Shown: one piece after another, positions 1 to 10,740 of the stretch
How the letters are laid out: each line of letters starts with the position of its first letter
Numbering within the stretch: the first letter of the stretch is position 1
DNA from: a virus
Length of the DNA: 10,740 nt
Direction: 5' to 3' (one strand)
Virus genome (UHGV): UHGV-1944544
Notes under the pieces: model-generated
The model's input: only the letters and a program-made list of their open reading frames with translations
Databases searched by the model: none
Told to the model about the DNA's origin: nothing
Translations under genes and position numbers: made by a program

Positions 1-60
1 GGATACTACATGCGCGCCGGGTTTGGCGTCGCGCTCCAGTTTTAACGGATAGGTAAACAT
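1..60 (-). CDS. hicB: HicB-family antitoxin, N-terminal fragment (gene continues past the window start)
   Basis: Minus-strand ATG at 60-58 translates to MFTYPLKLERDAKPGAHVVS, which fits the HicB N-terminal pattern (M-x-YP-[VL]...G...VS). It sits 30 bp downstream of hicA with an AGGAG Shine-Dalgarno about 7 nt before the ATG. Only 20 codons are visible. Confidence 0.55.
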   Translation of the reverse strand, partial: MFTYPLKLERDAKPGAHVVS

Positions 61-90
61 AGAGAAGCTCCTAGTGAAAAAGGCTGGGGC

Positions 91-273
91 TTAAAGCCCC
101 AGGTCCTTCATTATTTTCTTGCGTAGCGGTTCAGGCATTTCCTTTGAACCGTGGTCCGGGAAAACCGACCGCTTTCCGTTCAGGTTCACTTTCTGATGAC
201 TGCCGCCACCAGGCGCTTTCCTGAACTCTGCCCCTTGCTGGATTAACCAGCGTTTGAACTCTGAATACTTCAC
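91..273 (-). CDS. hicA: HicA-family mRNA interferase toxin (60 aa)
   Basis: Translation MKYSEFKRWLIQQGAEF...GSHQK...GKRSVFPDHG...EPLRKKIMKDLGL matches HicA hallmarks (MKxSEFxRWL, conserved His, RSV.P.H, EPLRK.I.K.LGL). GTG start at 273 with AAGGA about 5 nt upstream. Followed by the hicB fragment in the canonical hicA-then-hicB order. Confidence 0.85.
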   Translation of the reverse strand: MKYSEFKRWLIQQGAEFRKAPGGGSHQKVNLNGKRSVFPDHGSKEMPEPLRKKIMKDLGL

Positions 274-345
274 AAGTTTCCTTATGCAATTTATCCATCA
301 TGGGCGATAAGAATAGTAACACAAAAGATATAAAACACAACAAAA

Positions 346-359
346 ATGTTTATAAACAT
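346..359. promoter_or_regulatory. 14-bp perfect palindrome ATGTTTATAAACAT in the divergent region between hicA and the 506 gene; candidate operator
   Basis: Exact reverse-complement symmetry read from the sequence, about 73-86 bp upstream of the hicA start in AT-rich DNA. No convincing -35/-10 could be assigned; function is inferred. Confidence 0.25.
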
Positions 360-505
360 AACTTCCTTGTTTGGTGGTTGCGTTTTTGGAAAAGCATTTC
401 CGCATATGAAAAAACATCAGCATATGGTGAAAACAACGAAAAATTACTGATGAAATCACACACTGGATAAGCTGCCACGAAATCGGAAACCTTTTGCGGT
501 GAATC

Positions 506-2191
506 ATGGCAACGAAAGACAAAAACAAGGGCTTTCTGTCGGCATTGAAGAAAGCCTTCAGCGGTGGTGATGTTACGCCTGCCGATCCGGTCGTATTTGC
601 GAGCGGGCATAGCGTCGTTGCTCGTTCTGGCCTGTCCGCCTTGCGTCCTGGCATCCTGGGGAGCAATAGCGATGGCATGACAAGCGCGGCGGATACTGTA
701 TCTATATCGGCAGAATTACCGAGTGACCGCCTGCAAAAATACAACATACTGGAGACGATGGCGAAAAGCCCGACTATCTCCACAGCATTAAACATTCACA
801 TTGCGCATTCTCTGGCTCCATCAAAAAAAACAGGCCTCGCATTTATTCTCTCTCCGAAAAATGGGGCGGATAAGGAGGCTGTAAGTCGATGTGAGGAATT
901 GACCGCTGATTTAAGCTCAATGATTAATGATGGCCTGCCATCGTGGGCCATGATCATGGCTATTTTCGGTGTGTCGTATATCCGTCCATATGCAGAGCAA
1001 GGGAAGGGGATAACTGGAATTGAGTCGAGCTATTACACGCTCCCTCATTTCGTTCAGGAGTTTTATCGCGGTAGCCAACTTGTCGGATTCAGCGGTGATT
1101 ATATTCTGGATACGCATACTTTGCGCAGAGTTATAACCGAACCGTGGAATCTGGTTTCCATGAAAAACCCGTACTGGATGCCTCAGCATAAAGTAATGCC
1201 AGTAACTTACGGCACTAACGGCTATTCCTTGCTTAGTGAACAGCAGGACAAGCCGTTAATGGAGACGCAGAACTACGGTACGTCGTTTCTTGAATACAGT
1301 TATGAACCCTACCTGAATTTATGTGCCGCGCTTGCTGCGCTGAAAGCAACGCGAAACAACGCTGCAAAAATTGATCGCCTGATTGCACTCACAACGAACA
1401 CGATAGATCCGGTAAACGCGGCGAATTATACGCGCGGGGTCAGCCAGGCACTGAAGCGTCATAGCGACCTCGTAGCGCAACGGTCGATTAATTCTAATGC
1501 TCTCCCATCTGTACTTAACCATCTGATACCCGTCATGGGGGATGGGAAGAACGGGATCACCATTGATACGCAATCTATACCCGCAGATATCAGTGGTATC
1601 GAAGACGTTATGTTTCATCTCCGACAGCTCGCGGCAAGCCTCGGTATTGACGCAACAATGCTTGGCTGGGCTGATCAGATGAGTGGTGGACTTGGAGAAG
1701 GCGGTTGGCAGCAAACAGCTATCCAGGCCGCCTTACGCGCGAACTGGATCAGACAGGCCGCCCAGCGGACTATTTATCGGCTTCATGACATTCACCTCGC
1801 TTATAAATACGGGAAGGTTTACACCGAAAAAAACCGTCCTTATGACGTGCAATTCAACTCAATGAACACAGCTATCCAGGAAGAGGAAAACCGAGAGCTG
1901 GATGCGCGCGCCAACTTCGTAGCTGTCATCTCGCAAATAATGGACCAGATCCAGAACAACCCGAAACTGGCGGGTAGCGACGCGTTTATGCGTTATCTGT
2001 TCACCGAACAGCTTCGTATCGACGATGACACTCTCAACGTAATGATCAAAGAGTTTAAGGCGAATGAATCAGAGCAAAACAACGAGCATGGTATGTACGA
2101 ATCCGCGCCGTTGTCGTCCGGTGACGATCCGGAAAACTGGACGCAAGAACAATTAATCAACTTTGCAAAATTTGTGATGAGCAATAATTAA
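506..2191 (+). CDS. hypothetical protein (561 aa), first gene of a two-gene operon
   Basis: Long uninterrupted ORF from ATG 506 with a weak GGTGA Shine-Dalgarno. Its stop lies 13 bp before the next ATG. No Walker A or other catalytic motif recognised; the N-terminal ~80 aa are Gly/Ser/Ala-rich. A resemblance to phage portal proteins is speculative. Confidence 0.7.
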   Translation: MATKDKNKGFLSALKKAFSGGDVTPADPVVFASGHSVVARSGLSALRPGILGSNSDGMTSAADTVSISAELPSDRLQKYNILETMAKSPTISTALNIHIAHSLAPSKKTGLAFILSPKNGADKEAVSRCEELTADLSSMINDGLPSWAMIMAIFGVSYIRPYAEQGKGITGIESSYYTLPHFVQEFYRGSQLVGFSGDYILDTHTLRRVITEPWNLVSMKNPYWMPQHKVMPVTYGTNGYSLLSEQQDKPLMETQNYGTSFLEYSYEPYLNLCAALAALKATRNNAAKIDRLIALTTNTIDPVNAANYTRGVSQALKRHSDLVAQRSINSNALPSVLNHLIPVMGDGKNGITIDTQSIPADISGIEDVMFHLRQLAASLGIDATMLGWADQMSGGLGEGGWQQTAIQAALRANWIRQAAQRTIYRLHDIHLAYKYGKVYTEKNRPYDVQFNSMNTAIQEEENRELDARANFVAVISQIMDQIQNNPKLAGSDAFMRYLFTEQLRIDDDTLNVMIKEFKANESEQNNEHGMYESAPLSSGDDPENWTQEQLINFAKFVMSNN

Positions 2192-2204
2192 CCGGAGGGA
2201 AATA

Positions 2205-3203
2205 ATGCAATCACTGAATACCGTTACGGATCGCTTCTCCCTGGTAGAGAAAATCCGCAAACACACACCTCAGAACAATCGCAATTACGTTATCCAGTCG
2301 GTACGAGACACATTCAACTCGCCAGAAACAAAAGAGCGTATCGCACTGGGTGAGATGTATGGTTATTACGGTCATGGTCGCCGGGCGATGCACTATAACA
2401 AAACGAAAAGCCTGGACTTGCCGGAAGTCTCTGTTGTGATGGTAGATGGGAAGCCTGTTGTATTGGAGAACGTGCCGTCAAACAGGACTATCGACATTTC
2501 AATTGACGACAACGGCATTGTTACCCATACACAGGAAATACTGGATACGGACACCGGACGTATTGTTCAGGGTATGATTAATTCTGGCGCAGGTGGTTGG
2601 TCATGGGCTACATCTGGTCCAGATTACTCTGTATCCCTGGTAAAGTCTTTTCACGGTTTTGATTACGTAACAGTGCCTAACTATATCAGCCTCGACAAGA
2701 AAAGCCTGATGCTTGAATCAGCAGAAGAACGCGACGCGGCGATTCATGCGGCACTTATCGAACAAGGTTTTACCGATAATGCTGCTACGGATCTGGTTCA
2801 CCACTTTTCAGCAATGAAGAGTCAGCAAGCCATATTCGAATCAGCACAACGTGAAGTTCTGGAGTCGGAACTGATACATCTTGAAGTGGAAAATATGCAG
2901 CTTCGCGACAAACTACGCGACCAGGCCGCGATGATGGAAAGCCAGGGGGAGAACGCAAAGAAATCCCGCCGTATTTTGCGTGATGCTATCCAGGAAATGC
3001 CTGTTTTTATCAGCGCAGAACAGCGCCGGGCGCTCTGCCGTATGCAGTCAGAGGATGATGCACGCATTGTCGCAGCGATGCTTGAATCCCTGGGGGCTAA
3101 TGCCACTTATGGTCTGCCAATATCAGCCAATAAACAACAAGAAATACCGGTGAAAGAGAACAAGACGGTGACTCCGCTGATCTTTGTGTCTAAGAGGATG
3201 TGA
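2205..3203 (+). CDS. hypothetical protein (332 aa) with a predicted alpha-helical/coiled-coil C-terminal half
   Basis: ATG 2205 preceded by a strong GGAGGG Shine-Dalgarno (2194-2199). The C-terminal region (ESELIHLEVENMQLRDKLRDQAAMMESQ...) is heptad-like and charged. No family recognised. Confidence 0.75.
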   Translation: MQSLNTVTDRFSLVEKIRKHTPQNNRNYVIQSVRDTFNSPETKERIALGEMYGYYGHGRRAMHYNKTKSLDLPEVSVVMVDGKPVVLENVPSNRTIDISIDDNGIVTHTQEILDTDTGRIVQGMINSGAGGWSWATSGPDYSVSLVKSFHGFDYVTVPNYISLDKKSLMLESAEERDAAIHAALIEQGFTDNAATDLVHHFSAMKSQQAIFESAQREVLESELIHLEVENMQLRDKLRDQAAMMESQGENAKKSRRILRDAIQEMPVFISAEQRRALCRMQSEDDARIVAAMLESLGANATYGLPISANKQQEIPVKENKTVTPLIFVSKRM

Positions 3204-3316
3204 GCTAAAAGCTAGCTTAATTTTCTAACACAGTGTGTTTTTATACACTGTTGATCCGACGGCGCGTGATCGAGTAGGATCGCGGTCACTGCTCCGGTAG
3301 CGACTGCCAAAAAAGC

Positions 3317-3340
3317 AAAAGCCGCTGAGAAGCGGCTTTT
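3317..3340 (+). terminator. Rho-independent terminator downstream of the 506-3203 operon
   Basis: Perfect inverted repeat AAAAGCCGCT / AGCGGCTTTT around a GAGA tetraloop, with the GC core followed by TTTT. The flanking A-tract and T-tract make it potentially bidirectional. Confidence 0.55.
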
Positions 3341-3401
3341 GGGTGTATAAATCTCCGGACATAGATTTATACGGTAGATAGATTTTTCACGGTACTATCT
3401 G

Positions 3402-4361
3402 GTGAGTATTTTAAATTCAGTTTCAGTAACTTTCAACACTTCTGAGTATAAAAACAACACTGAATACCACAAAAAAATCAAAGGTCATCAGTTGAGTTTT
3501 TTTGCTCGTCATAGCGGTTTTCTTTCCCCTTCACATAGCGCCATTATTGCCGAGTTCGCCAACCTGGCAGGAGCTACCGATGAATACATGATCCGTCGCT
3601 CATATGCTGATATGTCCGAGATTACAGGACGCAGTATTTCTACTGTGCGCCGGGCATTTACCGAAGCGACGAAGTGCGGAATGCTTGTTAAGCAGCATCA
3701 GGTAGCGAATAACAATGCTCAGGTGTGTAACGTGTACCGGTTTACAACACAATTTCTCCACTTCATTCATGTAGCAATGGAGATAGGGAGTAAGCAGGGC
3801 ATCAAATTTGCCAACGCCACAAAACTGGTTAAGCAGTTGATTTCAAAGGTTCGTTATTTTTTTGAAACTGGGAACCCCCTGTTCAAATTGAACAAGTCCC
3901 CCCATGTTCAAAATGAACAGCCAATAGAAAATAAGAGTCACTCTATAGCCAAAAGAAGAGAAAGATCATGCGCGGTTCAGCCAAAGGCTTCACCAGCAGA
4001 TAGTTCTCAAGCGGATAATGGCTTGCTGGATAAAAAAACAGTAATCAGGGAAGAACATACCAACCACTGCCTGGCGGCAGCAAAAGCGAGAGCTGCAAAG
4101 CGTCGTTCAGACGAGGGGTACGCAAAACGGCAGGCTCTGTATCGTACCGCTGAAAAACTGGCAAAAAAATTTGCATGGTTACGTAGTGCTACCACAGTGA
4201 ATAAGCCCAAACGATCCAGCGCCCTGGATTTCTCTATGGATTATTCTGCTTCCCAGGGATGTGCAACCATCAATGAAGCATTTGACCTGATGAAACAGCG
4301 TGGCTATCGGTCTGAATTTGACCGGGAAGACTGGTCAATTCCGGAGGGCTTTCGGGGATGA
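3402..4361 (+). CDS. helix-turn-helix DNA-binding protein, possibly a replication initiator or regulator; N-terminus uncertain
   Basis: ORF of 319 aa from GTG 3402 with no Shine-Dalgarno. The first in-frame ATG is at 3588, where the nearest AGGAG is 15 nt upstream. HTH-like segment MSEITGRSISTVRRAFTEATKCGMLV, then a basic Lys/Arg-rich C-terminal half. The AT-rich 5' part contains direct repeats. Confidence 0.55.
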   Translation: MSILNSVSVTFNTSEYKNNTEYHKKIKGHQLSFFARHSGFLSPSHSAIIAEFANLAGATDEYMIRRSYADMSEITGRSISTVRRAFTEATKCGMLVKQHQVANNNAQVCNVYRFTTQFLHFIHVAMEIGSKQGIKFANATKLVKQLISKVRYFFETGNPLFKLNKSPHVQNEQPIENKSHSIAKRRERSCAVQPKASPADSSQADNGLLDKKTVIREEHTNHCLAAAKARAAKRRSDEGYAKRQALYRTAEKLAKKFAWLRSATTVNKPKRSSALDFSMDYSASQGCATINEAFDLMKQRGYRSEFDREDWSIPEGFRG

Positions 4362-4501
4362 TGTTGCGATTGACTGTACAATAACCGTGCGGCGGGAATT
4401 TCATCGCTCTAAAATGTATGTTAGAAAATTAAATTGATGTTTCTAATCAAGAATGTATGATTTATATCGTCACTAAAAAACAGCATCTGATAAAAATTCT
4501 G

Positions 4502-4530
4502 TTGATCTTTCTAATGTTCAGGCTTATATT
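4502..4530 (+). promoter_or_regulatory. Candidate sigma70 promoter (-35 TTGATC, 17-bp spacer, -10 TATATT)
   Basis: Hexamers read at 4502-4507 and 4525-4530. It lies about 250 bp upstream of the 4778 ORF and rha, and precedes the alternative-hairpin region at 4581-4620. Confidence 0.3.
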
Positions 4531-4777
4531 CATGCCGTCGTAGCAAATTCTGCGACCGGGTTTAGCAGCCTGAATGTTAGTGCGGACAACCGCAGATATC
4601 CGATATTGCGGTATTTTTGTGTCCGTAAAACCGCGTTACGCCCAAATTATGGTGGGGCGTGATGGGGAGGCTTCGGCCTGCTGGTTTCACTAACGCCAGT
4701 CTGCTAACCCCGTCACGTCCTGCCACCTGTTTAGCAGCGGGTAGCAGGTTGTTAAACCTGTTAGTGAGGCCGTAACT

Positions 4778-5002
4778 ATGGTTAATGCCAATCCTTGCTC
4801 ACGTCCAGAATTCATCTGGCGTTTTCACTCCCTGCAAAAACACTGCGATCACTTCGCAATTGCCGCAACTGAAAAAGAAGCCCGTTCTCTGATCCCGGAT
4901 CAGTATGGCGTTCTCACTGGTCGTTTCTCTACTTCCCCACAACCAAACACCAATCCCTGGTATCGCAATATTACCAATCCCGGCATTGTGGAGGCTCACT
5001 GA
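4778..5002 (+). CDS. hypothetical small protein (74 aa), translationally coupled to the Rha gene
   Basis: ATG 4778 with GAGG 8 nt upstream. Its TGA stop overlaps the rha ATG (TGATG at 5000-5004). No family recognised. Confidence 0.45.
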   Translation: MVNANPCSRPEFIWRFHSLQKHCDHFAIAATEKEARSLIPDQYGVLTGRFSTSPQPNTNPWYRNITNPGIVEAH

Positions 5003-5943
5003 TGGATATCTGCATTCTCGAAAAGCCATCAATGACAAGCATTGAGATCGCGGAGCTGGTGGGAAAACGTCATGACAATGTGAAACGCACTATTGAGACA
5101 TTAGCCAAAGGTGGCGTTATTGTTCGTCCTCAAATTGAGGTTTTCGAAAAAATCAATAACTTAGGACTACGACGTAGTGTTGAGGCTTACGTCTTCGAAG
5201 GCGAGCAAGGCAAGCGCGATAGCATTATCGTCGTCGCGCAGCTCTCTCCCGAATTCACCGCCCGGCTGGTGGACCGCTGGCGCGAACTGGAGAATGCCCG
5301 GGTACAGTTAAAATCAAAAGCCGAAATCCTGGCCGAAATGGCGCAAATGCATCTTGAGCATGAACGCCGGATCAACGCCGTTAATGCCCAGGTAGCCGAA
5401 GTATCCGCACAAGTGTCCAAAGTCGCTGAAACCGTCGAGCAGATCAAGAAAGGCAATATTCCGGAAGGCTACATTGGCTATCGCCAGTTGGCGGCAAAAT
5501 GCGGCCTGACTGAAGCCAAATGCCGCAACCTGGTCAACGCTTACCGGATACCCACTGATACGCATGAGTTTTTGACGCCAGAGGGGGTATTGTCGCGTCG
5601 TACTATTGTGGCCTTATCTCCCTTCATGAATGCCTTTACCCTGATGATGTCGGAGGCTGAACACCGAGGAAAACGCTGGTATCATCCCAGGATGGGGCTA
5701 TTTCAGGCCATTCACCATCCTGTGCCTGAAAGTCCAAAGGCAAACCTGTCGTTGCATACCGCCAGAGAGAAGATTAAAACAGGGTATGCAACCGTATGCC
5801 GTCGAGCATCCTGGCCTGAAAGTGTCTGGGTATGGCCCGAAAGAGGCTCACGGAAAAACTGGCGCACCATTCGCGACGGCAAGATCTGTGCGATTGATTT
5901 ACAGCCAGAAGATGTAGCAGCGACCGACTGGATTGTTAGTTAA
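5002..5943 (+). CDS. Rha-family phage regulatory protein (313 aa)
   Basis: N-terminal SIEIAELVGKRHDNVKRTIE matches the Rha-domain signature (...AE.FGKRHDNV.R.I...). GGAGG Shine-Dalgarno 8 nt upstream of ATG 5002. Confidence 0.8.
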   Translation: MDICILEKPSMTSIEIAELVGKRHDNVKRTIETLAKGGVIVRPQIEVFEKINNLGLRRSVEAYVFEGEQGKRDSIIVVAQLSPEFTARLVDRWRELENARVQLKSKAEILAEMAQMHLEHERRINAVNAQVAEVSAQVSKVAETVEQIKKGNIPEGYIGYRQLAAKCGLTEAKCRNLVNAYRIPTDTHEFLTPEGVLSRRTIVALSPFMNAFTLMMSEAEHRGKRWYHPRMGLFQAIHHPVPESPKANLSLHTAREKIKTGYATVCRRASWPESVWVWPERGSRKNWRTIRDGKICAIDLQPEDVAATDWIVS

Positions 5944-5950
5944 TAGATTT

Positions 5951-5972
5951 GCCCCGGTCATGCCGGGGCTTT
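5951..5972 (+). terminator. Rho-independent terminator after rha
   Basis: GCCCCGG / CCGGGGC 7-bp GC-rich stem with loop TCATG, followed by only TTT, so the U-tract is short. Confidence 0.45.
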
Positions 5973-5999
5973 AACTACTAAGTGACCGGACACAGCAAA

Positions 6000-6320
6000 A
6001 TGTATGCCACGAAAAAAATTGATTTCACTTATTCTTCCGCCACAATTGAGCGGCGCTTCACCCTCATTAGAGAGTTGGAACTGTCAAAAGTCTGGTATCA
6101 AATTCTACTGGATGAAGAGTTCTCACTGATGATAATGGCTGAAAAAGAAGCAATGCCGAATGACCGGCATAAAGTCATTGCCAGCCTTGACCTGGTGACA
6201 AACAGATACTGGGAGACAGAGGAACTGCGTGAAGCGGGAGTAATTCGTGACCTGATGGAGAGTTCCGTTCCCCGCCGCTATCGTGCGGGAAACGAAATCT
6301 CCGTGATTAAAGGGGCTTAA
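6000..6320 (+). CDS. hypothetical protein (106 aa from ATG 6000; the ORF opens at GTG 5982)
   Basis: Open frame with a weak ribosome-binding site, starting only 10-28 bp after the rha terminator. Its TAA stop overlaps the stop of the convergent minus-strand gene. The call as a real gene is uncertain. Confidence 0.4.
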   Translation: MYATKKIDFTYSSATIERRFTLIRELELSKVWYQILLDEEFSLMIMAEKEAMPNDRHKVIASLDLVTNRYWETEELREAGVIRDLMESSVPRRYRAGNEISVIKGA

Positions 6321-6709
6321 AGCTCACCAGCACGCTGTTTTTCAAGCGTAGATTTAACATTGGGCGCTTTCCCTTTAAAAGAATGGAAAGTGCCACATTT
6401 TTCTGTTTTAACCTCGCGCAGAGCTTCGCCATCGGCGTTCTGCCATTGATGAGATAACGTCATATCACCGCGAGAAGGAACATCCAGCGAGTACAACGTG
6501 TAAGTTCCCCCCATCTCGGCATACTCCTGGAACACATAGCTCATTACGTCAGATTCAGTTTTCCGGTGCGCGTTATCGACCTTATTCCCATTCAGAAATA
6601 TGGCGTTCGGATAGATTTTTATATCAAACCTACCGCACTTCACTTGTAAATTCCCGGCGTGAGCGATCAAAGGGAAAGCTGCCAATAAAGCAATAGCTAA
6701 TCTTTTCAA
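6317..6709 (-). CDS. secreted (periplasmic) protein with Sec signal peptide, 130 aa
   Basis: TTG start at 6709 with GGAGG 6 nt upstream. N-terminus MKRLAIALLAAFPLIAHA-GN is a classic signal peptide with an AxA cleavage site. Mature part has two Cys (VKCGRF, TEKCGTF). Lies 20 bp downstream of the preceding gene. Confidence 0.7.
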   Translation of the reverse strand: MKRLAIALLAAFPLIAHAGNLQVKCGRFDIKIYPNAIFLNGNKVDNAHRKTESDVMSYVFQEYAEMGGTYTLYSLDVPSRGDMTLSHQWQNADGEALREVKTEKCGTFHSFKGKAPNVKSTLEKQRAGEL

Positions 6710-6729
6710 TTCTGCCTCCGCTGCGTAAC

Positions 6730-7350
6730 TTATTGCCCGTATTGTTTACACCATTGCTCTGCCATTTGTGGGGCTAAAGGCCCAGCCACTGCGCTGTATT
6801 CTGCTGTTTTGCTTTGCACGCATGAGGCAGATGGTTTTTTATTGCGCTGTTCCTTGAGTTGTTTTTCATAGGCAACGATGGCATCGAAACCAGCTACATC
6901 TTCCTCCCTCATGAACCCTTTCTTGATCAGAAACTGCTGACCTTCCGGCACCAATGCTAGAGCATACAACGGCTGCAACAGCTCCCCCAATCCTTCCCGG
7001 CTATAAACTTGAAACTGCATCCAGCTTTTACTTAACGCTGTCATAGTGTCTTTGGTGGAATAGCCAGCCTTGCGTATAGCCTTGTCTAATCGATCTGCTG
7101 AATACGCAAACAAACAGAAATCGCCCTTTCCTGTAAACCCCGGTTCAACCGGTTGCAACGTGATATTTTCTTTTTCGCAAAAGTCTATAAATTCATCAGG
7201 TCTATCGGTTTTATAGTCCCGCAATACCTTCAGTCCAGCCTCATACTTTGCAGGTAACGCGCCTGCATAGGCAGCATTAAGAGAAACTCCCCCCAATATA
7301 ACCGCGAGCACTGCTCCCAAAACCCTTAACTTCACAAAACCATCCTTCAT
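6730..7350 (-). CDS. secreted (periplasmic) protein with Sec signal peptide, about 207 aa
   Basis: Start placed at the internal ATG (7350-7348), which yields MKDGFVKLRVLGAVLAVILGGVSLNAAYA-G, a signal peptide. The 47 codons upstream in the track ORF are Phe-rich, AT-driven and look non-coding. Mature part has four Cys. Confidence 0.65.
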   Translation of the reverse strand: MKDGFVKLRVLGAVLAVILGGVSLNAAYAGALPAKYEAGLKVLRDYKTDRPDEFIDFCEKENITLQPVEPGFTGKGDFCLFAYSADRLDKAIRKAGYSTKDTMTALSKSWMQFQVYSREGLGELLQPLYALALVPEGQQFLIKKGFMREEDVAGFDAIVAYEKQLKEQRNKKPSASCVQSKTAEYSAVAGPLAPQMAEQWCKQYGQ

Positions 7351-7564
7351 GTAAAAAAACTGAAGTTTTATGTTACAAAAGCAAACATCTACGCCAAAAT
7401 GACCTAGGCCAAATTCAGCGCGAATAAAAAATTCAAAAAAATTGTTGACACTATTCTGGAAATCACAATCTGGACAAAATCCATTACGCAAACGGCTCCC
7501 GTTGAAGGTTCTTTTGACGACTAACTTTCAGCCGATGCGCGGTAGGGAGTCATAACGCCAAAGC

Positions 7565-7589
7565 AGGCCGCCATGTGCGGCCTTTTTTT
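7565..7589 (+). terminator. Strong intrinsic-terminator-like hairpin in the leader of the 7616 gene
   Basis: AGGCCGC / GCGGCCT 7-bp stem with loop CATGT, followed by seven T. Plus-oriented, ending 26 bp before ATG 7616, with no plus-strand gene immediately upstream. Confidence 0.6.
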
Positions 7590-7615
7590 GTGCCTGCTAT
7601 CGTGGAGTAAAAGCC

Positions 7616-8269
7616 ATGCAAAAGATCGCAATATTCAGCCTTTCTACTAACAAGCCGCTGATGGCTACAGCAGTCCTGAAAGACGGCGCGCTTGTAATTG
7701 ACAAAGTAAAGCCGCTCCCTGCATCTGCTATTGAACAAAAACGAAAAATTCCACCAGTAATTGCCGAGCTGCGTAAAAGTGAATTTAAGGTGCTGGTTGA
7801 CGAAATCACGCCAACCATTTCAGCCGGTACAGGTGCCAGCCAGGTAACATTAAAAACACGGCACGCCGACGGCAGAGCAGCGATCATTGTCGGCATGGAG
7901 AGATACCGGGAGCTGAAACTACAAAGGCTGCTATCCCTGCCTGACAAGAACAAAGGGGCATTTGAGATCCCCGACTCTATCGTCGATACCGAATACAACG
8001 GCAACGGTGAAGAGGTTTATCGAGTTAACTGGCAAGATATCCGACCAGAGCACATCCTGATGATTCTGTGCTGCTATGCAACGGTATACCACAATGTTGC
8101 CAGCGCGGATTACCTGAAACAAATGACAGGAGCGGTAGAGAAAGAAAACAAAGCAGGGATAATGGCCTCGTTCCTGTCCATTATCAGCGATCAAAAAGCT
8201 AAAGCAGGAAATACCCAACCAAAATCGCTGGCCGGGCAAGTAATTGATGAAGATACGGTGATACTTTAA
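7616..8269 (+). CDS. hypothetical protein (217 aa)
   Basis: ATG 7616 with GGAG 8 nt upstream. No signal peptide, no transmembrane segment and no recognised motif. Confidence 0.7.
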   Translation: MQKIAIFSLSTNKPLMATAVLKDGALVIDKVKPLPASAIEQKRKIPPVIAELRKSEFKVLVDEITPTISAGTGASQVTLKTRHADGRAAIIVGMERYRELKLQRLLSLPDKNKGAFEIPDSIVDTEYNGNGEEVYRVNWQDIRPEHILMILCCYATVYHNVASADYLKQMTGAVEKENKAGIMASFLSIISDQKAKAGNTQPKSLAGQVIDEDTVIL

Positions 8270-8541
8270 TCAACTCAGTAGCTTTGTTAACTCCCTTAAT
8301 ACCAGGTAGAAGAGTAACAAAAATACTAACGCCAGTATTTGCGTGGTCAACGAGGCGTTCATAAACAGAACAATTAGCTTTAACAATTCGAGAATAACGT
8401 CCATGTCATTCACACTATTTAATTTTTAATCTACAGCCAGCAAACAATGAAGCTGCCCCCCGCATAAAGATTAATGAAAGTCACTTGTTGACAGTCAATA
8501 AATTCAGTGCGGCGAAGAAACTCTGTCTATACGGATAGTGC

Positions 8542-8579
8542 TTGCATTTTGCCCTTTCCGCGTGTAGTGTGTATACACA
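8542..8579 (+). promoter_or_regulatory. Putative higBA promoter with a 12-bp palindromic operator (TGTGTATACACA)
   Basis: Perfect palindrome at 8568-8579 overlapping a candidate -10 (TATACA, 8572-8577), with -35 TTGCCC at 8549-8554 (17-bp spacer); an alternative pairing is TTGCAT 8542-8547 with TAGTGT 8565-8570. It lies 26-37 bp upstream of the higB start. Confidence 0.4.
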
Positions 8580-8604
8580 AGTCACGCACACGGATGGAAT
8601 TATT

Positions 8605-8886
8605 TTGATTAAGTCATTTCGCCATAAGGGGCTTGAACGCTTTTTCAAGACAGGTTCAACCGCAGGCATTCAGACCAAACATGCGGTTAAGCTACGCATT
8701 CAATTGACTGCTCTTAATACAGCTAAACGCCCGGACGATATGTCTGCGCCTGGATGGGAATTACACCCACTAAAGGGGGCGGACCTTAAAGGTCACTGGG
8801 CAATATCGGTAAACGGTAACTGGCGACTTACCTTCCGATTTGAAGGAGAAGACGCAATTCTAGTTGACTATCAGGATTATCATTGA
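8605..8886 (+). CDS. higB: HigB toxin (RelE/ParE superfamily, plasmid-maintenance-killer type), about 93 aa
   Basis: From TTG 8605 the product reads (M)[13 protein letters not shown]...[41 protein letters not shown], matching the HigB signature (MIKSFxHKGL ... HPLKGD..G.W.I.V..NWR.TF.F...DA.I..Y.DYH). GGATGGA Shine-Dalgarno at 8592-8598. The track ORF opens earlier, at TTG 8542. Confidence 0.85.
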
Positions 8887-8894
8887 GGAACACT

Positions 8895-9176
8895 ATGAGT
8901 CGTATGCATAATCCCGCGCATCCAGGCGCGGTTCTTCGTGAATATTTGGGAGACATGTCAGTCACAGACGCAGCTGCTGCATTAGGCATTACTCGCACGG
9001 CACTTTCCCGAATTCTGAACGAAAAAACAGGTATTTCTGCTGATATGGCACTTCGTCTGGAGTCCGCTCTTGGAACCAGTGCCGAAATGTGGACCGGTAT
9101 GCAATCCCAGTATGAGCTTTGGGTTGCTTCGCAAACCGCTCGCCCAAACATCCGTCCATTATTTTCCCACGCATAA
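8895..9176 (+). CDS. higA: HigA antitoxin (XRE-type HTH), about 93 aa
   Basis: From ATG 8895 the product reads [18 protein letters not shown]...[37 protein letters not shown], matching the HigA family (MHNP.HPG ... S...L.GK.GIS..MALRL...GTS.E.W). GAGG Shine-Dalgarno 6 nt upstream; the start is 8 bp after the higB stop. Confidence 0.85.
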
Positions 9177-9181
9177 TTTTA

Positions 9182-9213
9182 CAGCGTCACCAGGCCAGGT
9201 GACGCTGCTTTCC
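9182..9213 (+). terminator. Candidate terminator after higA
   Basis: Perfect 9-bp stem CAGCGTCAC / GTGACGCTG with an 8-nt loop, followed by CTTTCC, a weak U-tract. Confidence 0.4.
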
Positions 9214-9268
9214 CGCATTTCACACCCTGCATACAGTTCCCCACAGGTTATGACTGTGAGGAACTGTT

Positions 9269-9598
9269 ATGAGTTACAGCAGACTCGACGATCGATGCAT
9301 TGAAGACGATGTGCTGCGCGCACTATTCCATCAGGAGATGATCAAGCGGGTATCGGAGTATCACTCCGATAATTTCCAGTACACGATAAAAATTGATGAG
9401 GTTTATCGCTCAGACCTAGCGGCCTATCGCGCCTATGGCAACGCTGATTTGCGCTGGGTATTTCGCGTGCTGGTGGGCCATGAGTCAGAAATGGAAGAAA
9501 TGCCGGTAGGGACAACGTTAACTCTTCCTGACGCAGCATGGCTAAGAAACAAGATTCGCGATTACGCTGGCTCGGCACCGGAGATAGAAAATGCCTGA
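9269..9598 (+). CDS. hypothetical protein (109 aa); C-terminal part tentatively LysM-like / phage tail-protein-X-like
   Basis: ATG 9269 with GAGGAA 5 nt upstream. The C-terminal segment (YRSDLAAYRAYGNADL...MPVGTTLTLPD) resembles the tail-protein-X pattern as recalled from memory, unverified. Its stop overlaps the start of the next gene (ATGCCTGA). Confidence 0.6.
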   Translation: MSYSRLDDRCIEDDVLRALFHQEMIKRVSEYHSDNFQYTIKIDEVYRSDLAAYRAYGNADLRWVFRVLVGHESEMEEMPVGTTLTLPDAAWLRNKIRDYAGSAPEIENA

Positions 9599-10740
9599 CT
9601 TCCAGAAAAATCAGGACGGGCGATATATCACTGACGGCCTGTCCTCTAAGGATTTCACACGCGTATTTGAACTCATCAGGAAAGAGCAAAACCGCAAACG
9701 CCGCCAGGCGCACAGGACACTCACGCCGGGCAGGCTTAGGAATAAATCAGCCGAAGACATTCTTAAGCTGGGGAAAAAGAAAGGCGGCACGTTCTTTACG
9801 CGTGACGATCTGAAAGGCTTCGAAAAGCTGCGAAGCAAAGCACGCGAAAAATATGACAGCAAGACGGCTGGCATTACATACGCACAACTGGTAGCGTCCA
9901 GCCAGGCTATCGATATTAAGCGAGCAAATAACGCCGTAGACGACGGTTCTGGTATCAAAAGAGCTACGCCCGTATCTCTTCGTCACAATGTGATTAATAT
10001 CCGCGTGGAAGCGTCCGATATATCCGTTCACCAGCACCACATTGTCCGGGTACGTTTTGAAGAATGGGATCAGATAGTCGATGACATCGCAGAAGACGAT
10101 AAATCAGCCCTGAAAGTCACAAAATCACTGTGTGCCGGGCGAGTGTCTTTCGACTGTGACTGCGGTCGCCATCAATACTGGTATCGCTACATCGCCACTG
10201 CGGGTAACTTTGCCCTGGCCCCGCCAAAAGAATACGCCTATCCAAAAGTTCGCAACCCTAAGCTGCAAGGCGTCGCCTGTAAACATGTGATCCACTCAAT
10301 GACACGACTACAGTCTGCCAGTTGGCAGATGAGTATTGCTCGCGCCCTGCAAAAAGCTGCAACGCAAGTTGCCTTTGGTGACGATCGCCGCCGCACGACA
10401 AAACACTTCACAAAAGAAGACGAGAAGGCGTTCAATCGAAACCGTAGCAGCAAAACGAATGTTGAGGCAGCTAAACGTGAATGGAAGCTCTATCAGAAAC
10501 GCCAGGCCGCTTTAAGCTCAAAACTGGCAAAGGACAACGGTAAGATCGACAAGCTGCGCGACCAACTGACCAGGGCCAGAAAGTTATCCGACGCACAGAA
10601 AAAACGGGCAGCGGCAAAAGAAGCTGCTTTGCAACGGGAGAAGCAGAAAAACAAGGAACTTCAGCAACGCCTTGCTGATCAGTTCGCACTGAAGAAGCAG
10701 GCGTTCATTGATGCGCTTGTTATGGCAGGAACACCACCAG
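9591..10740 (+). CDS. large hypothetical protein, partial (at least 383 aa, continues past the window end), with a CxC...CxH putative zinc-binding motif and a basic coiled-coil region
   Basis: Frame translated by hand from ATG 9591 to the window end with no stop codon; GGAG lies 7 nt upstream. Cys cluster FDCDCGRH...(38 aa)...CKHVIH encoded at 10155-10295. From about 10390 onward the sequence is Lys/Arg/Gln/Ala-rich and heptad-like. Absent from the supplied track because it has no in-window stop. Confidence 0.7.
   Translation, partial: MPDFQKNQDGRYITDGLSSKDFTRVFELIRKEQNRKRRQAHRTLTPGRLRNKSAEDILKLGKKKGGTFFTRDDLKGFEKLRSKAREKYDSKTAGITYAQLVASSQAIDIKRANNAVDDGSGIKRATPVSLRHNVINIRVEASDISVHQHHIVRVRFEEWDQIVDDIAEDDKSALKVTKSLCAGRVSFDCDCGRHQYWYRYIATAGNFALAPPKEYAYPKVRNPKLQGVACKHVIHSMTRLQSASWQMSIARALQKAATQVAFGDDRRRTTKHFTKEDEKAFNRNRSSKTNVEAAKREWKLYQKRQAALSSKLAKDNGKIDKLRDQLTRARKLSDAQKKRAAAKEAALQREKQKNKELQQRLADQFALKKQAFIDALVMAGTPP

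What the first reader, a model, noticed from the sequence alone, without database searches (positions are those of the whole stretch)
6317..7350. Operon of two Cys-containing secreted proteins on the opposite strand
The two adjacent minus-strand genes (20-bp spacer, GGAGG before the second) both encode clear Sec signal peptides. The mature parts carry 4 and 2 cysteines, suggesting disulfide-stabilised periplasmic proteins. Such pairs in mobile islands are often periplasmic inhibitors, immunity proteins or virulence-associated factors. No family recognised.
Basis: partly seen in the sequence, partly recalled or inferred. Interest (0 to 1): 0.4.

Follow-up and report, generated by a model that had tools for sequence, protein, structure and literature searches.

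The report
Paired secreted proteins of a phage-plasmid
Two adjacent genes of a P1/D6-like E. coli phage-plasmid encode exported, disulfide-type proteins of unknown fold family that work as a pair (they are fused into one protein in related elements) and sit in the same swappable operon as relatives of phage P1's SimB protein, so they most likely protect the lysogen's envelope against incoming phage, although no function has been tested.

Summary
Gene A (6730-7335, GTG start; 201 aa) and gene B (6317-6709, TTG start; 130 aa) form a minus-strand operon with a 20-nt spacer and a GGAGG. Both have classical Sec/SPase-I signal peptides. All 4 and 2 mature cysteines are conserved, and both genes are under purifying selection.

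The window is a P1/D6-like phage-plasmid. The pair lies between the immI module (C4 RNA, icd, ant, pmgF-like) and mat/baseplate genes.

The main new result is that the slot is modular across related elements:
- A+B
- A fused to mature B
- A + SimB-long
- A-SimB-B
- SimB + A::B
- SimB-long alone (phage D6)

A and B therefore act together, and they share operons with homologues of P1 SimB. The best-supported reading is a Sim-type periplasmic superinfection-exclusion cassette, but this rests on association only (confidence about 0.4). I rate it a new variant of a known kind, of moderate interest.

The parts
6730..7335 (-). Gene A. 201-aa precursor; mature form about 177 aa, 19.9 kDa. Exported all-alpha protein with Cys53/74/172/196. 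It has a core domain (aa ~25-150) and a variable C-terminal tail.
7264..7335 (-). Signal peptide of A (aa 1-24). Predicted SPase I site AYA|GA.
   Evidence: Sequence. Rule-based scan. The character of the signal peptide is conserved in all homologues while its sequence drifts. pLDDT <50 for residues 1-27.
7343..7347 (-). AAGGA ribosome-binding site, 7 nt before A's GTG start.
   Evidence: Read directly from the sequence. Conserved as AAGG in the E. coli/Shigella-group relatives.
7370..7397 (-). Candidate weak sigma-70 promoter of the A-B operon: TTGGCG, 16 nt, TAACAT. Inferred, not shown.
   Evidence: The TAACAT block is conserved in 4 of 7 aligned upstream regions. It falls below the threshold of the consensus scan, which found no promoter in 5900-7700. 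This region is 76% identical to the DNA upstream of D6 orf79.
6715..6719 (-). GGAGG ribosome-binding site of B, inside the 20-nt A-B spacer (6710-6729).
   Evidence: Read directly from the sequence.
6317..6709 (-). Gene B. 130-aa precursor; mature form 112 aa, 12.6 kDa. Exported beta-rich protein with Cys25/Cys105.
6656..6709 (-). Signal peptide of B (aa 1-18). Predicted SPase I site AHA|GN.
   Evidence: In the natural A::B fusions this segment is replaced by a linker, and the B part begins at the residue aligned with the first mature residue of B (ANLAVECG versus GNLQVKCG).
6153..6170 (-). Terminator-like hairpin about 150 nt downstream of B. It lies antisense inside the pmgF-like gene and is a possible end of the A-B transcript.
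   Evidence: Consensus scan only.

Best explanation
Genes A and B are a two-gene accessory (moron-type) operon of a P1/D6-like phage-plasmid. Both products are exported by Sec, have their signal peptides removed, and probably form disulfides in the periplasm. There they act together as a complex. A is the fast-evolving helical subunit and B is the conserved beta subunit.

The operon occupies the plasmid's Sim-type variable slot next to the immI module (c4-icd-ant). The most likely job is superinfection exclusion: in the lysogen's periplasm the A-B complex blocks DNA entry by incoming P1/D6-like phages after they have adsorbed. It would do this by binding a part of the phage ejection apparatus or a host envelope factor.

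Shown here:
- The operon structure and the signal-peptide features.
- Conservation of the cysteines and purifying selection on both genes.
- Functional coupling of A and B, through natural fusions and conserved adjacency.
- Shared operons with SimB homologues in related elements.

Inferred, not shown:
- Export and disulfide formation.
- Expression in the lysogen.
- The exclusion phenotype and its target.
For: 1. Element and position. The region is 99.2-99.7% identical to ~90-95 kb E. coli plasmids, and 72 of 75 matched places are on plasmids. Gene order matches phage D6. The C4 antisense RNA and its targets lie upstream.

2. A and B act together.
- They are adjacent in 52 PLSDB plasmids and in many IMG/VR contigs.
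- They are fused into one 277-aa secreted protein in Enterobacter phage-plasmids: A core aa 1-150 at 36-40% identity, mature B at 69% identity.
- The fusion is found in 3 protein clusters with 36 member sequences.
- A more distant fusion also exists, P0024/L023.
- The fusion starts B at its predicted mature N-terminus.

3. Link to Sim.
- pS143-4 carries A + SimB-long. The SimB-long protein is 51% identical to P1 SimB over 86 aa.
- L024 carries a tight three-gene operon A-SimB-B, all with signal peptides.
- L023 carries SimB followed by A::B.
- D6 carries only SimB-long, behind the same upstream DNA and a stub of A's first ~12 codons.
- P1 simC is the superinfection-exclusion gene (PMC2409434). 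In the P1 record simA and simB are annotated as its putative accessory genes in the same operon. Read directly from the translated sequences, all three P1 Sim proteins have signal-peptide-like N-termini.

4. The A/B-bearing reference plasmid has no SimA, SimB or SimC of its own. A-B therefore replaces rather than supplements them.

5. The slot is interchangeable in the plasmid population: 77 plasmids carry A/B DNA and 59 carry SimB-long. The sim region is one of eight hypervariable regions of P1-like phage-plasmids (PMC9603915).

6. The cassette is dispensable for phage growth. D6 lacks A and B, and the P1 sim genes are non-essential (PMC10695390).

7. A diverges much faster than B in the same set of plasmids: 51-76% versus 88-97% amino-acid identity. 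This fits a specificity subunit in an arms race.
Against: - No phenotype has been tested, and the link to exclusion rests on association only.
- The partner that provides the link, SimB, has no demonstrated function itself. The exclusion phenotype of P1 is assigned to simC.
- Neither A nor B shows any similarity to SimC (blastp; hhalign). B shows none to the C-terminal domain of SimB-long.
- No confident promoter was found. No P1 C1 operator and no P1 late-promoter motif are present, so expression in the lysogen is not shown.
- Distant A-like and B-like genes also occur alone. One B-like gene sits next to an Hcp (type VI secretion) gene.
- The fold searches gave no functional lead.
Confidence: 0.4

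Rival explanations
1. A and B are periplasmic protection (immunity-type) proteins against threats other than phage. They would neutralise envelope-targeting toxins such as type VI effectors, colicins or muramidases, and so give the lysogen a competitive advantage.
For: - Small exported proteins with disulfide-type cysteines on mobile elements are typical of orphan immunity genes (general knowledge).
- In another P1-like element, identified by an Lpa late-activator gene, a B-like gene sits beside an Hcp gene and a DUF1493 gene.
- Distant A-like and B-like genes occur alone on plasmids.
Against: - No toxin or effector gene lies next to the operon, either in the window or in the D6-like loci examined.
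- There are no Pfam, NCBIfam or PADLOC hits.
- This reading does not explain the repeated sharing of an operon with SimB next to the immI module.
Confidence: 0.2
2. A and B serve the phage's own lytic cycle from the periplasm. Examples would be control of lysis timing (antiholin or lysis-inhibition type sensing) or modulation of the endolysin/spanin step.
For: - They are phage-encoded periplasmic proteins.
- The operon is divergent from mat (maturation control) and close to baseplate genes.
- No lysogenic promoter or C1 operator was recognised.
Against: - The cassette is absent from D6 and is replaced by unrelated secreted proteins in sibling elements.
- One natural allele carries a nonsense mutation in B.
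- No P1-type late-promoter motif is present.
- The window holds no holin or endolysin gene.
Confidence: 0.15
3. A and B are lysogenic-conversion factors that act on the animal host or on surface properties (virulence, adhesion or colonisation).
For: Carrier strains come from human blood and urine, dogs, pigs and poultry. Secreted prophage morons sometimes have such roles (general knowledge).
Against: - The proteins have a Sec signal only. There is no sign of outer-membrane translocation, no lipobox and no adhesin-like repeats.
- There is no similarity to known virulence factors.
- Isolation sources also include sewage, wastewater, river water and sediment, so the genes appear to track the phage-plasmid rather than a pathotype.
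Confidence: 0.08

Closest known systems
Phage P1 sim operon (simA-simB-simC; SimC = Sim superinfection-exclusion protein)
   Same: - A small operon of signal-peptide proteins with conserved cysteines, next to the immI (c4-icd-ant) module of a P1-family phage-plasmid.
- Dispensable for growth and hypervariable between relatives.
- SimB homologues share operons with A and B in related elements.
   Different: - A and B have no detectable homology to SimA, SimB or SimC.
- The slot lies downstream of ant/pmgF and convergent with them, divergent from mat. In P1, sim is divergent from c4.
- No exclusion phenotype is known for A or B.
Phage D6 orf79 / SimB-long (298 aa annotated, 273 aa real)
   Same: It occupies the same slot, on the same strand, behind homologous upstream DNA. 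It is a secreted protein and is an alternative partner of A in pS143-4.
   Different: It is unrelated in sequence to A and B. D6 keeps only the first ~12 codons of A, as a stub at its annotated start.
T4 Spackle (Sp) and Imm; periplasmic or membrane superinfection-exclusion proteins (from general knowledge)
   Same: The proposed mode of action is the same: a phage-encoded envelope protein that blocks the entry machinery of incoming related phages after adsorption. Spackle is a small exported helical protein that inhibits the tail lysozyme.
Cor / Llp-type phage lipoproteins (T1, phi80, T5)
   Same: They are small beta-rich exported phage proteins that act at the envelope. The best BFVD match of B is a phage 'lipoprotein', with E 2.5e-4 and TM 0.44-0.49.
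   Different: B has no lipobox. The TM-score is below 0.5 and identity is 16%. This is a weak resemblance, not membership.
VtrC / ToxS periplasmic beta-barrel partners (5kev_B, 8u2f_B)

Membership tests
PHROG 12786 (A) and PHROG 13864 (B), unknown function | Full-length match to the family profile | tested here: met
   A: E 1e-101, residues 1-206 on profile 1-207. B: E 1.6e-88, residues 1-130 on profile 1-130.
Sec/SPase I exported proteins | N-terminal basic n-region, 10-15-residue uncharged hydrophobic core, small residues at -3/-1, no lipobox | tested here: met
   Sequences. A rule-based scan flags only A, B and one marginal ORF out of 198 candidate starts. The feature is conserved in all homologues. 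The signal peptide of B is dropped in the fusions. A dedicated predictor and export experiments were not available.
P1 SimC (Sim) superinfection-exclusion protein | Sequence or profile homology to SimC | tested here: not met
   blastp found nothing. hhalign probability is 0.1% for both families. The A/B-bearing plasmid has no SimC by tblastn.
P1 SimC (Sim) superinfection-exclusion protein | Blocks P1 infection after adsorption when expressed; needs signal-peptide processing | not testable with these tools
   This needs plating-efficiency and DNA-entry assays.
P1 sim-type locus (operon context) | Operon of exported proteins beside immI that contains a SimB homologue | tested here: inconclusive
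   The window operon lies beside the immI module but holds no SimB homologue, and neither does the A/B-bearing reference plasmid. Sibling loci combine A and/or B with SimB: pS143-4, L024 and L023.
SimB family | Homology to P1 SimB (aa 28-111) | tested here: not met
   There is no blastp or HMM match of A or B to SimB. As a positive control, D6 orf79 and pS143-4 SimB-long match at 51-52% identity.
Lysozyme inhibitors MliC/PliC, Ivy, PliG | Pfam family match or a clear fold match to a solved inhibitor | tested here: not met
Cor/Llp-type exclusion lipoproteins | Lipobox (L-x-x-C) at the end of the signal peptide | tested here: not met
   The predicted cleavage regions are AYA|G and AHA|G. The first Cys of B is 7 residues after the site.
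Known anti-phage defence systems (PADLOC-DB) | Match to a defence-system protein model | tested here: not met
   No family matched at E<=1 for A, B, P1 SimB, P1 SimC or D6 orf79.

The most novel reading that the evidence does not exclude
A and B are a previously unrecognised two-component (sometimes fused) periplasmic anti-phage module. The helical subunit has no known fold relative. The module mixes and matches with SimB-type proteins at one hot spot of P1-family phage-plasmids. The fast-evolving A subunit would recognise the ejection apparatus of rival phages, for example the tape-measure/transglycosylase or the tail tip, and the complex would stop DNA translocation across the periplasm.
Probability: 0.3. 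Interest if true: 0.6.

Novelty: new variant of a known kind. Interest (0 to 1): 0.42.

Why it matters
Superinfection exclusion by phage P1 (Sim) was described decades ago. To my knowledge its mechanism is still not understood, and the library searches here turned up no mechanistic account.

This locus shows that SimB-type proteins belong to a combinatorial set of exported modules: A, B, SimB, the C-terminal domain of SimB-long, and SimC. Phage-plasmids shuffle these modules at one site.

The natural A::B fusion predicts a physical complex that could be expressed, crystallised and used to fish for its target. P1/D6-like phage-plasmids are common carriers of resistance genes in Enterobacteriaceae. 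What decides which phage-plasmid can enter an already occupied cell therefore matters for the spread of those genes and for phage-based tools.

If the function turns out not to be anti-phage, these are still two orphan periplasmic protein families confined to Enterobacteriaceae phage-plasmids.

Tried and rejected
- Homology of A or B to SimC, and of B to the C-terminal domain of D6 orf79: none by blastp or hhalign.
- Known phages: tblastn of A and B against 50,697 phage records found nothing credible.
- NCBIfam and PADLOC: nothing.
- PDB sequence-profile search: nothing below E 0.7.
- AlphaFold-database fold library: not installed, so afdb50 could not be searched.
- Species-representative genomes (GTDB): a pattern scan with the B-family alignment found no relative. 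The broad A and B alignments were too divergent to make search patterns.
- Regulation: no P1 C1 operator within 3 mismatches, no P1 late-promoter motif, and no consensus sigma-70 promoter at the scan's threshold.
- Phase variation at the G6 run in B. Several database variants of B break right after 'EYAEM'. However, the run is interrupted in other lineages, and the split copy I could inspect has a nonsense mutation instead. These variants are therefore more likely homopolymer sequencing errors or sporadic decay.
- Foreign base composition: the G+C of A and B (0.45-0.47) is not distinct from the window as a whole (0.476).
- The P1 genome paper (PMC523184) is not held in the library.

Full report
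**1. The observation**

Gene B runs from 6709 (TTG) to 6317 and encodes 130 aa. Its GGAGG lies at 6715-6719, 5 nt before the start. Exactly 20 nt separate it from the TAA stop of gene A (6730-6732).

An alignment of upstream regions from relatives shows that the conserved start is the GTG at 7335, giving 201 aa. It has AAGGA 7 nt upstream, and the ATG is missing in the Shigella dysenteriae copy. RefSeq calls the gene from a TTG at 7491 (253 aa). That version would bury the signal peptide and is probably over-extended.

Both N-termini are textbook Sec/SPase I signals:
- A: MKLRVLGAVLAVILGGVSLNAAYA|GALP
- B: MKRLAIALLAAFPLIAHA|GNLQ

Neither has a lipobox. A crude rule-based scan of all 198 candidate start sites of ORFs >=60 aa in the window picked out only these two, plus one marginal antisense ORF inside mat. 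AlphaFold gives pLDDT <50 for just these N-terminal segments.

Mature A (177 aa, 19.9 kDa) has four cysteines and mature B (112 aa, 12.6 kDa) has two. All four of A are invariant in its close relatives. C53 and C74 of A and both cysteines of B are also invariant in distant homologues. A's second pair (C172, C196) sits in the C-terminal tail, which some distant homologues lack.

Pairwise dN/dS is 0.10-0.38 for A and 0.06-0.12 for B, so both are real genes under constraint.

**2. The genetic element**

The region is 99.2-99.7% identical to ~89-95 kb plasmids of E. coli. Seventy of 5,426 complete genomes have a match, and 72 of the 75 matched places are on plasmids. Annotation of these plasmids and of phage D6 shows a P1/D6-like phage-plasmid.

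The gene order in the window is:
- HicA
- portal
- head-processing-like protein
- lytic replication protein
- C4 antisense RNA with its a1b1 targets (Rfam)
- icd
- Rha-type antirepressor
- pmgF-like
- B and A, on the opposite strand
- mat (maturation control)
- HigB/HigA
- baseplate gp26

A-B therefore lies between the immI module and the mat/baseplate genes. It is convergent with pmgF, with the two stop codons overlapping by 4 nt, and divergent from mat.

**3. What the proteins are**

Neither protein matches Pfam, NCBIfam or PADLOC. Both match PHROG families of unknown function over their full length (12786 and 13864).

A word-indexed search of 5.8 billion proteins found only 7 clusters for A and 11 for B. 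An exhaustive HMMER search was then run against 1.84 billion representative proteins, using a combined profile built on the fusion proteins. It found only 41 proteins at E<=1e-3. Those that carry names come from E. coli, Shigella, Salmonella, Enterobacter and Leclercia. The contigs are mostly 88-109 kb, with some up to 169 kb. A pattern scan of one genome per bacterial species found nothing. Both families therefore look confined to Enterobacteriaceae phage-plasmids.

Protein A:
- AlphaFold predicts an all-alpha protein (9 helices, pLDDT 74, pTM 0.64).
- The family has a conserved core (aa ~25-150). Its invariant residues are P28, C53, C74, Y78, G91-Y92-S93, P122, G132 and D146.
- The C-terminal tail is variable. 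It comes in two alternative versions and is absent in some members.

Protein B:
- AlphaFold predicts an antiparallel beta meander or barrel of about nine strands (pLDDT 82.5, pTM 0.73).
- No MliC, PliC, Ivy or PliG appears in the list shown.
- Against predicted viral structures the best match is a phage 'lipoprotein' (E 2.5e-4, TM 0.44-0.49), which is weak.
- Profile searches of PDB sequences found nothing.

The lysozyme-inhibitor suggestion is therefore not supported, and the folds give no functional lead.

**4. The decisive evidence: a modular slot**

I compared the same slot in related elements. The configurations are:

| Element | Content of the slot |
|---|---|
| Window and most E. coli relatives | A + B |
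| Shigella dysenteriae plasmids | A-like + B-like |
| Enterobacter hormaechei p60214CZ_1 and IMG/VR contig L022 | one 277-aa secreted protein: A core (aa 1-150, 36-40% identity) joined by a linker to mature B (69% identity) |
| E. coli pS143-4 | A-like (62% identity) + a 273-aa 'SimB-long' protein; residues 31-116 are 51% identical to P1 SimB |
| IMG/VR contig L024 | tightly packed operon A - SimB (105 aa) - B, all three with signal peptides |
| L023 | SimB followed by an A::B fusion |
| Phage D6 | SimB-long only, behind the same upstream DNA (76% identity) and a stub of A's first ~12 codons at its annotated start |

The fusion is not an assembly error. It occurs in three protein clusters with 36 member sequences on ~84-92 kb contigs. 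A more divergent fusion also exists (P0024). In the fusions, B starts at the residue aligned with its predicted mature N-terminus, and its signal peptide is gone. This independently supports the predicted cleavage site and shows that both parts work in the same compartment.

In PLSDB, 77 plasmids carry A/B DNA, 52 of them with both genes. Another 59 carry SimB-long. The complete plasmid whose A/B genes are identical to the window has no SimA, SimB or SimC. Conversely, no phage record, P1 and D6 included, matched A or B by tblastn. An HMM scan of the half of P1 that holds the sim operon (45-94.8 kb) found SimB but neither A nor B.

**5. Interpretation**

Two things follow directly from the data.

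First, A and B act together. This rests on the natural fusions in at least two lineages and on their conserved adjacency.

Second, they belong to a set of exported modules that phage-plasmids recombine at one hot spot, and that set includes SimB.

In P1, simA-simB-simC is an operon beside the immI module. All three translated products have signal-peptide-like N-termini. simC is the superinfection-exclusion gene (PMC2409434). From my own recollection of Kliem & Dreiseikelmann 1989 and Maillou & Dreiseikelmann 1990, Sim is made as a precursor whose signal peptide is removed, and it blocks P1 infection after adsorption. The sim genes are dispensable for growth (PMC10695390). The sim region is one of eight hypervariable regions of P1-like phage-plasmids (PMC9603915).

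The best-supported reading is therefore that A-B is a Sim-type periplasmic superinfection-exclusion cassette. A diverges far faster than B in the same set of plasmids: 51-76% versus 88-97% amino-acid identity, with dN 0.14-0.40 versus 0.02-0.06. This would fit a specificity subunit paired with a conserved one.

A plausible target is the ejection machinery of incoming P1-family phages. The general analogy is T4 Spackle, which acts on the gp5 tail lysozyme. This last step is inference only.

**6. Why confidence is limited**

- The link to exclusion is by association.
- SimB itself has no demonstrated role.
- A and B show no similarity to SimC, and B shows none to the C-terminal domain of SimB-long.
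- I could not identify a confident promoter. The best candidate is TTGGCG-16-TAACAT at 7397-7370, partly conserved but below the scan threshold.
- There is no P1 C1 operator and no P1 late-promoter motif, so the timing of expression is unknown.
- Distant A-like and B-like genes occur alone.
- In another P1-like element, identified by an Lpa gene, a B-like gene sits next to Hcp and DUF1493 genes. This keeps alive a broader 'periplasmic protection' reading.

A role in the phage's own lysis programme is less likely, because the cassette is absent from or replaced in sibling elements and occasionally decays (nonsense allele). Because both proteins carry Sec signals, they are unlikely to be virion components, which assemble in the cytoplasm.

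**7. Verdict**

The lysozyme-inhibitor and virulence ideas are not supported.

This is best described as a new variant of a known kind. It is a Sim-type accessory locus built from two uncharacterised protein families, one of which has no recognisable fold relative. Interest is moderate. The natural fusion and the combinatorial operons give a clear, testable entry into a superinfection-exclusion system whose mechanism, as far as I know, is still open.

Noticed in passing
window 5129-5707 (inside the Rha/ant gene 5002-5943): No complete E. coli genome holds the window as one piece. Bases 2-5707 match one icd-Rha region of the reference plasmids and bases 5129-10740 match a second icd-Rha region about 43 kb away on the same strand. 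The window is therefore either a recombinant or deletion between two antirepressor paralogues, or an assembly join across the repeat.
   Followed up: partly
window 4524-4576 and 4645-4730 (+): Rfam finds the C4 antisense RNA (70 bits) and its a1b1 target element (53.9 bits). This is a P1-type immI c4-icd-ant module just upstream of the antirepressor.
   Followed up: no
window 7565-7583 (+), and 6317-6320: A conserved G+C-rich hairpin followed by a T-run sits on the + strand just before mat, and its stem is preserved in the divergent Enterobacter loci. It is the only +-strand terminator-like site found in 5900-7700, downstream of the pmgF-like gene, whose stop overlaps B's stop by 4 nt. Read-through from the immI operon would therefore run antisense across B and A before terminating here, which could silence the pair during induction.
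   Followed up: partly
window 6507-6512 (G6 run in gene B, minus strand): Several database variants of B are truncated or frameshifted right after 'EYAEM', at this homopolymer. The run is interrupted in other lineages. One IMG/VR copy (L019) instead has a GAG-to-TAG nonsense mutation. Sequencing error or sporadic decay is more likely than programmed phase variation.
   Followed up: yes
window 6730-7491; L002 (phage D6) 5141-6037: There are two likely start-codon mis-annotations in public records. RefSeq calls A as 253 aa from an upstream TTG. D6 orf79 is annotated from the leftover start of a deleted A gene (VKLMVLGTALAAK...), whereas its own signal peptide begins at MFFIKNGKRF.
   Followed up: partly
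L025 5980-8022 (IMG/VR contig of 95 kb with a P1 Lpa-type late activator): A distant B-like gene stands alone next to a small membrane protein, a type VI secretion Hcp gene and a DUF1493 gene. It is odd cargo for a phage-plasmid and hints that B-like proteins may have roles beyond the Sim-type slot.
   Followed up: partly
window 6730-6880 (C-terminal ~50 aa of A): The tail of A carries the second cysteine pair and comes in two unrelated versions among close relatives...AYEKQLKEQRNKKPSASCVQSK... versus ...ELERSMKQKQAPKQPTAECI.... It is missing in the fusions and in several distant homologues. The two versions do not track the partner gene.
   Followed up: partly
window 8542-9176 (+) and 91-273 (-): A HigB/HigA toxin-antitoxin pair is inserted between mat and baseplate gene 26. 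It is present in some sibling plasmids and absent in others. A HicA-type toxin gene, named from the near-identical region of the reference plasmid, lies at the left end of the window.
   Followed up: no
L003 1787-2581 (P1 simC): P1 SimC gives a sub-threshold Pfam match to the tRNA_anti-like OB-fold family (E 0.0011, 19 bits against a cutoff of 23.5; residues 67-159). This is a possible clue to the fold of the classical Sim protein.
   Followed up: no
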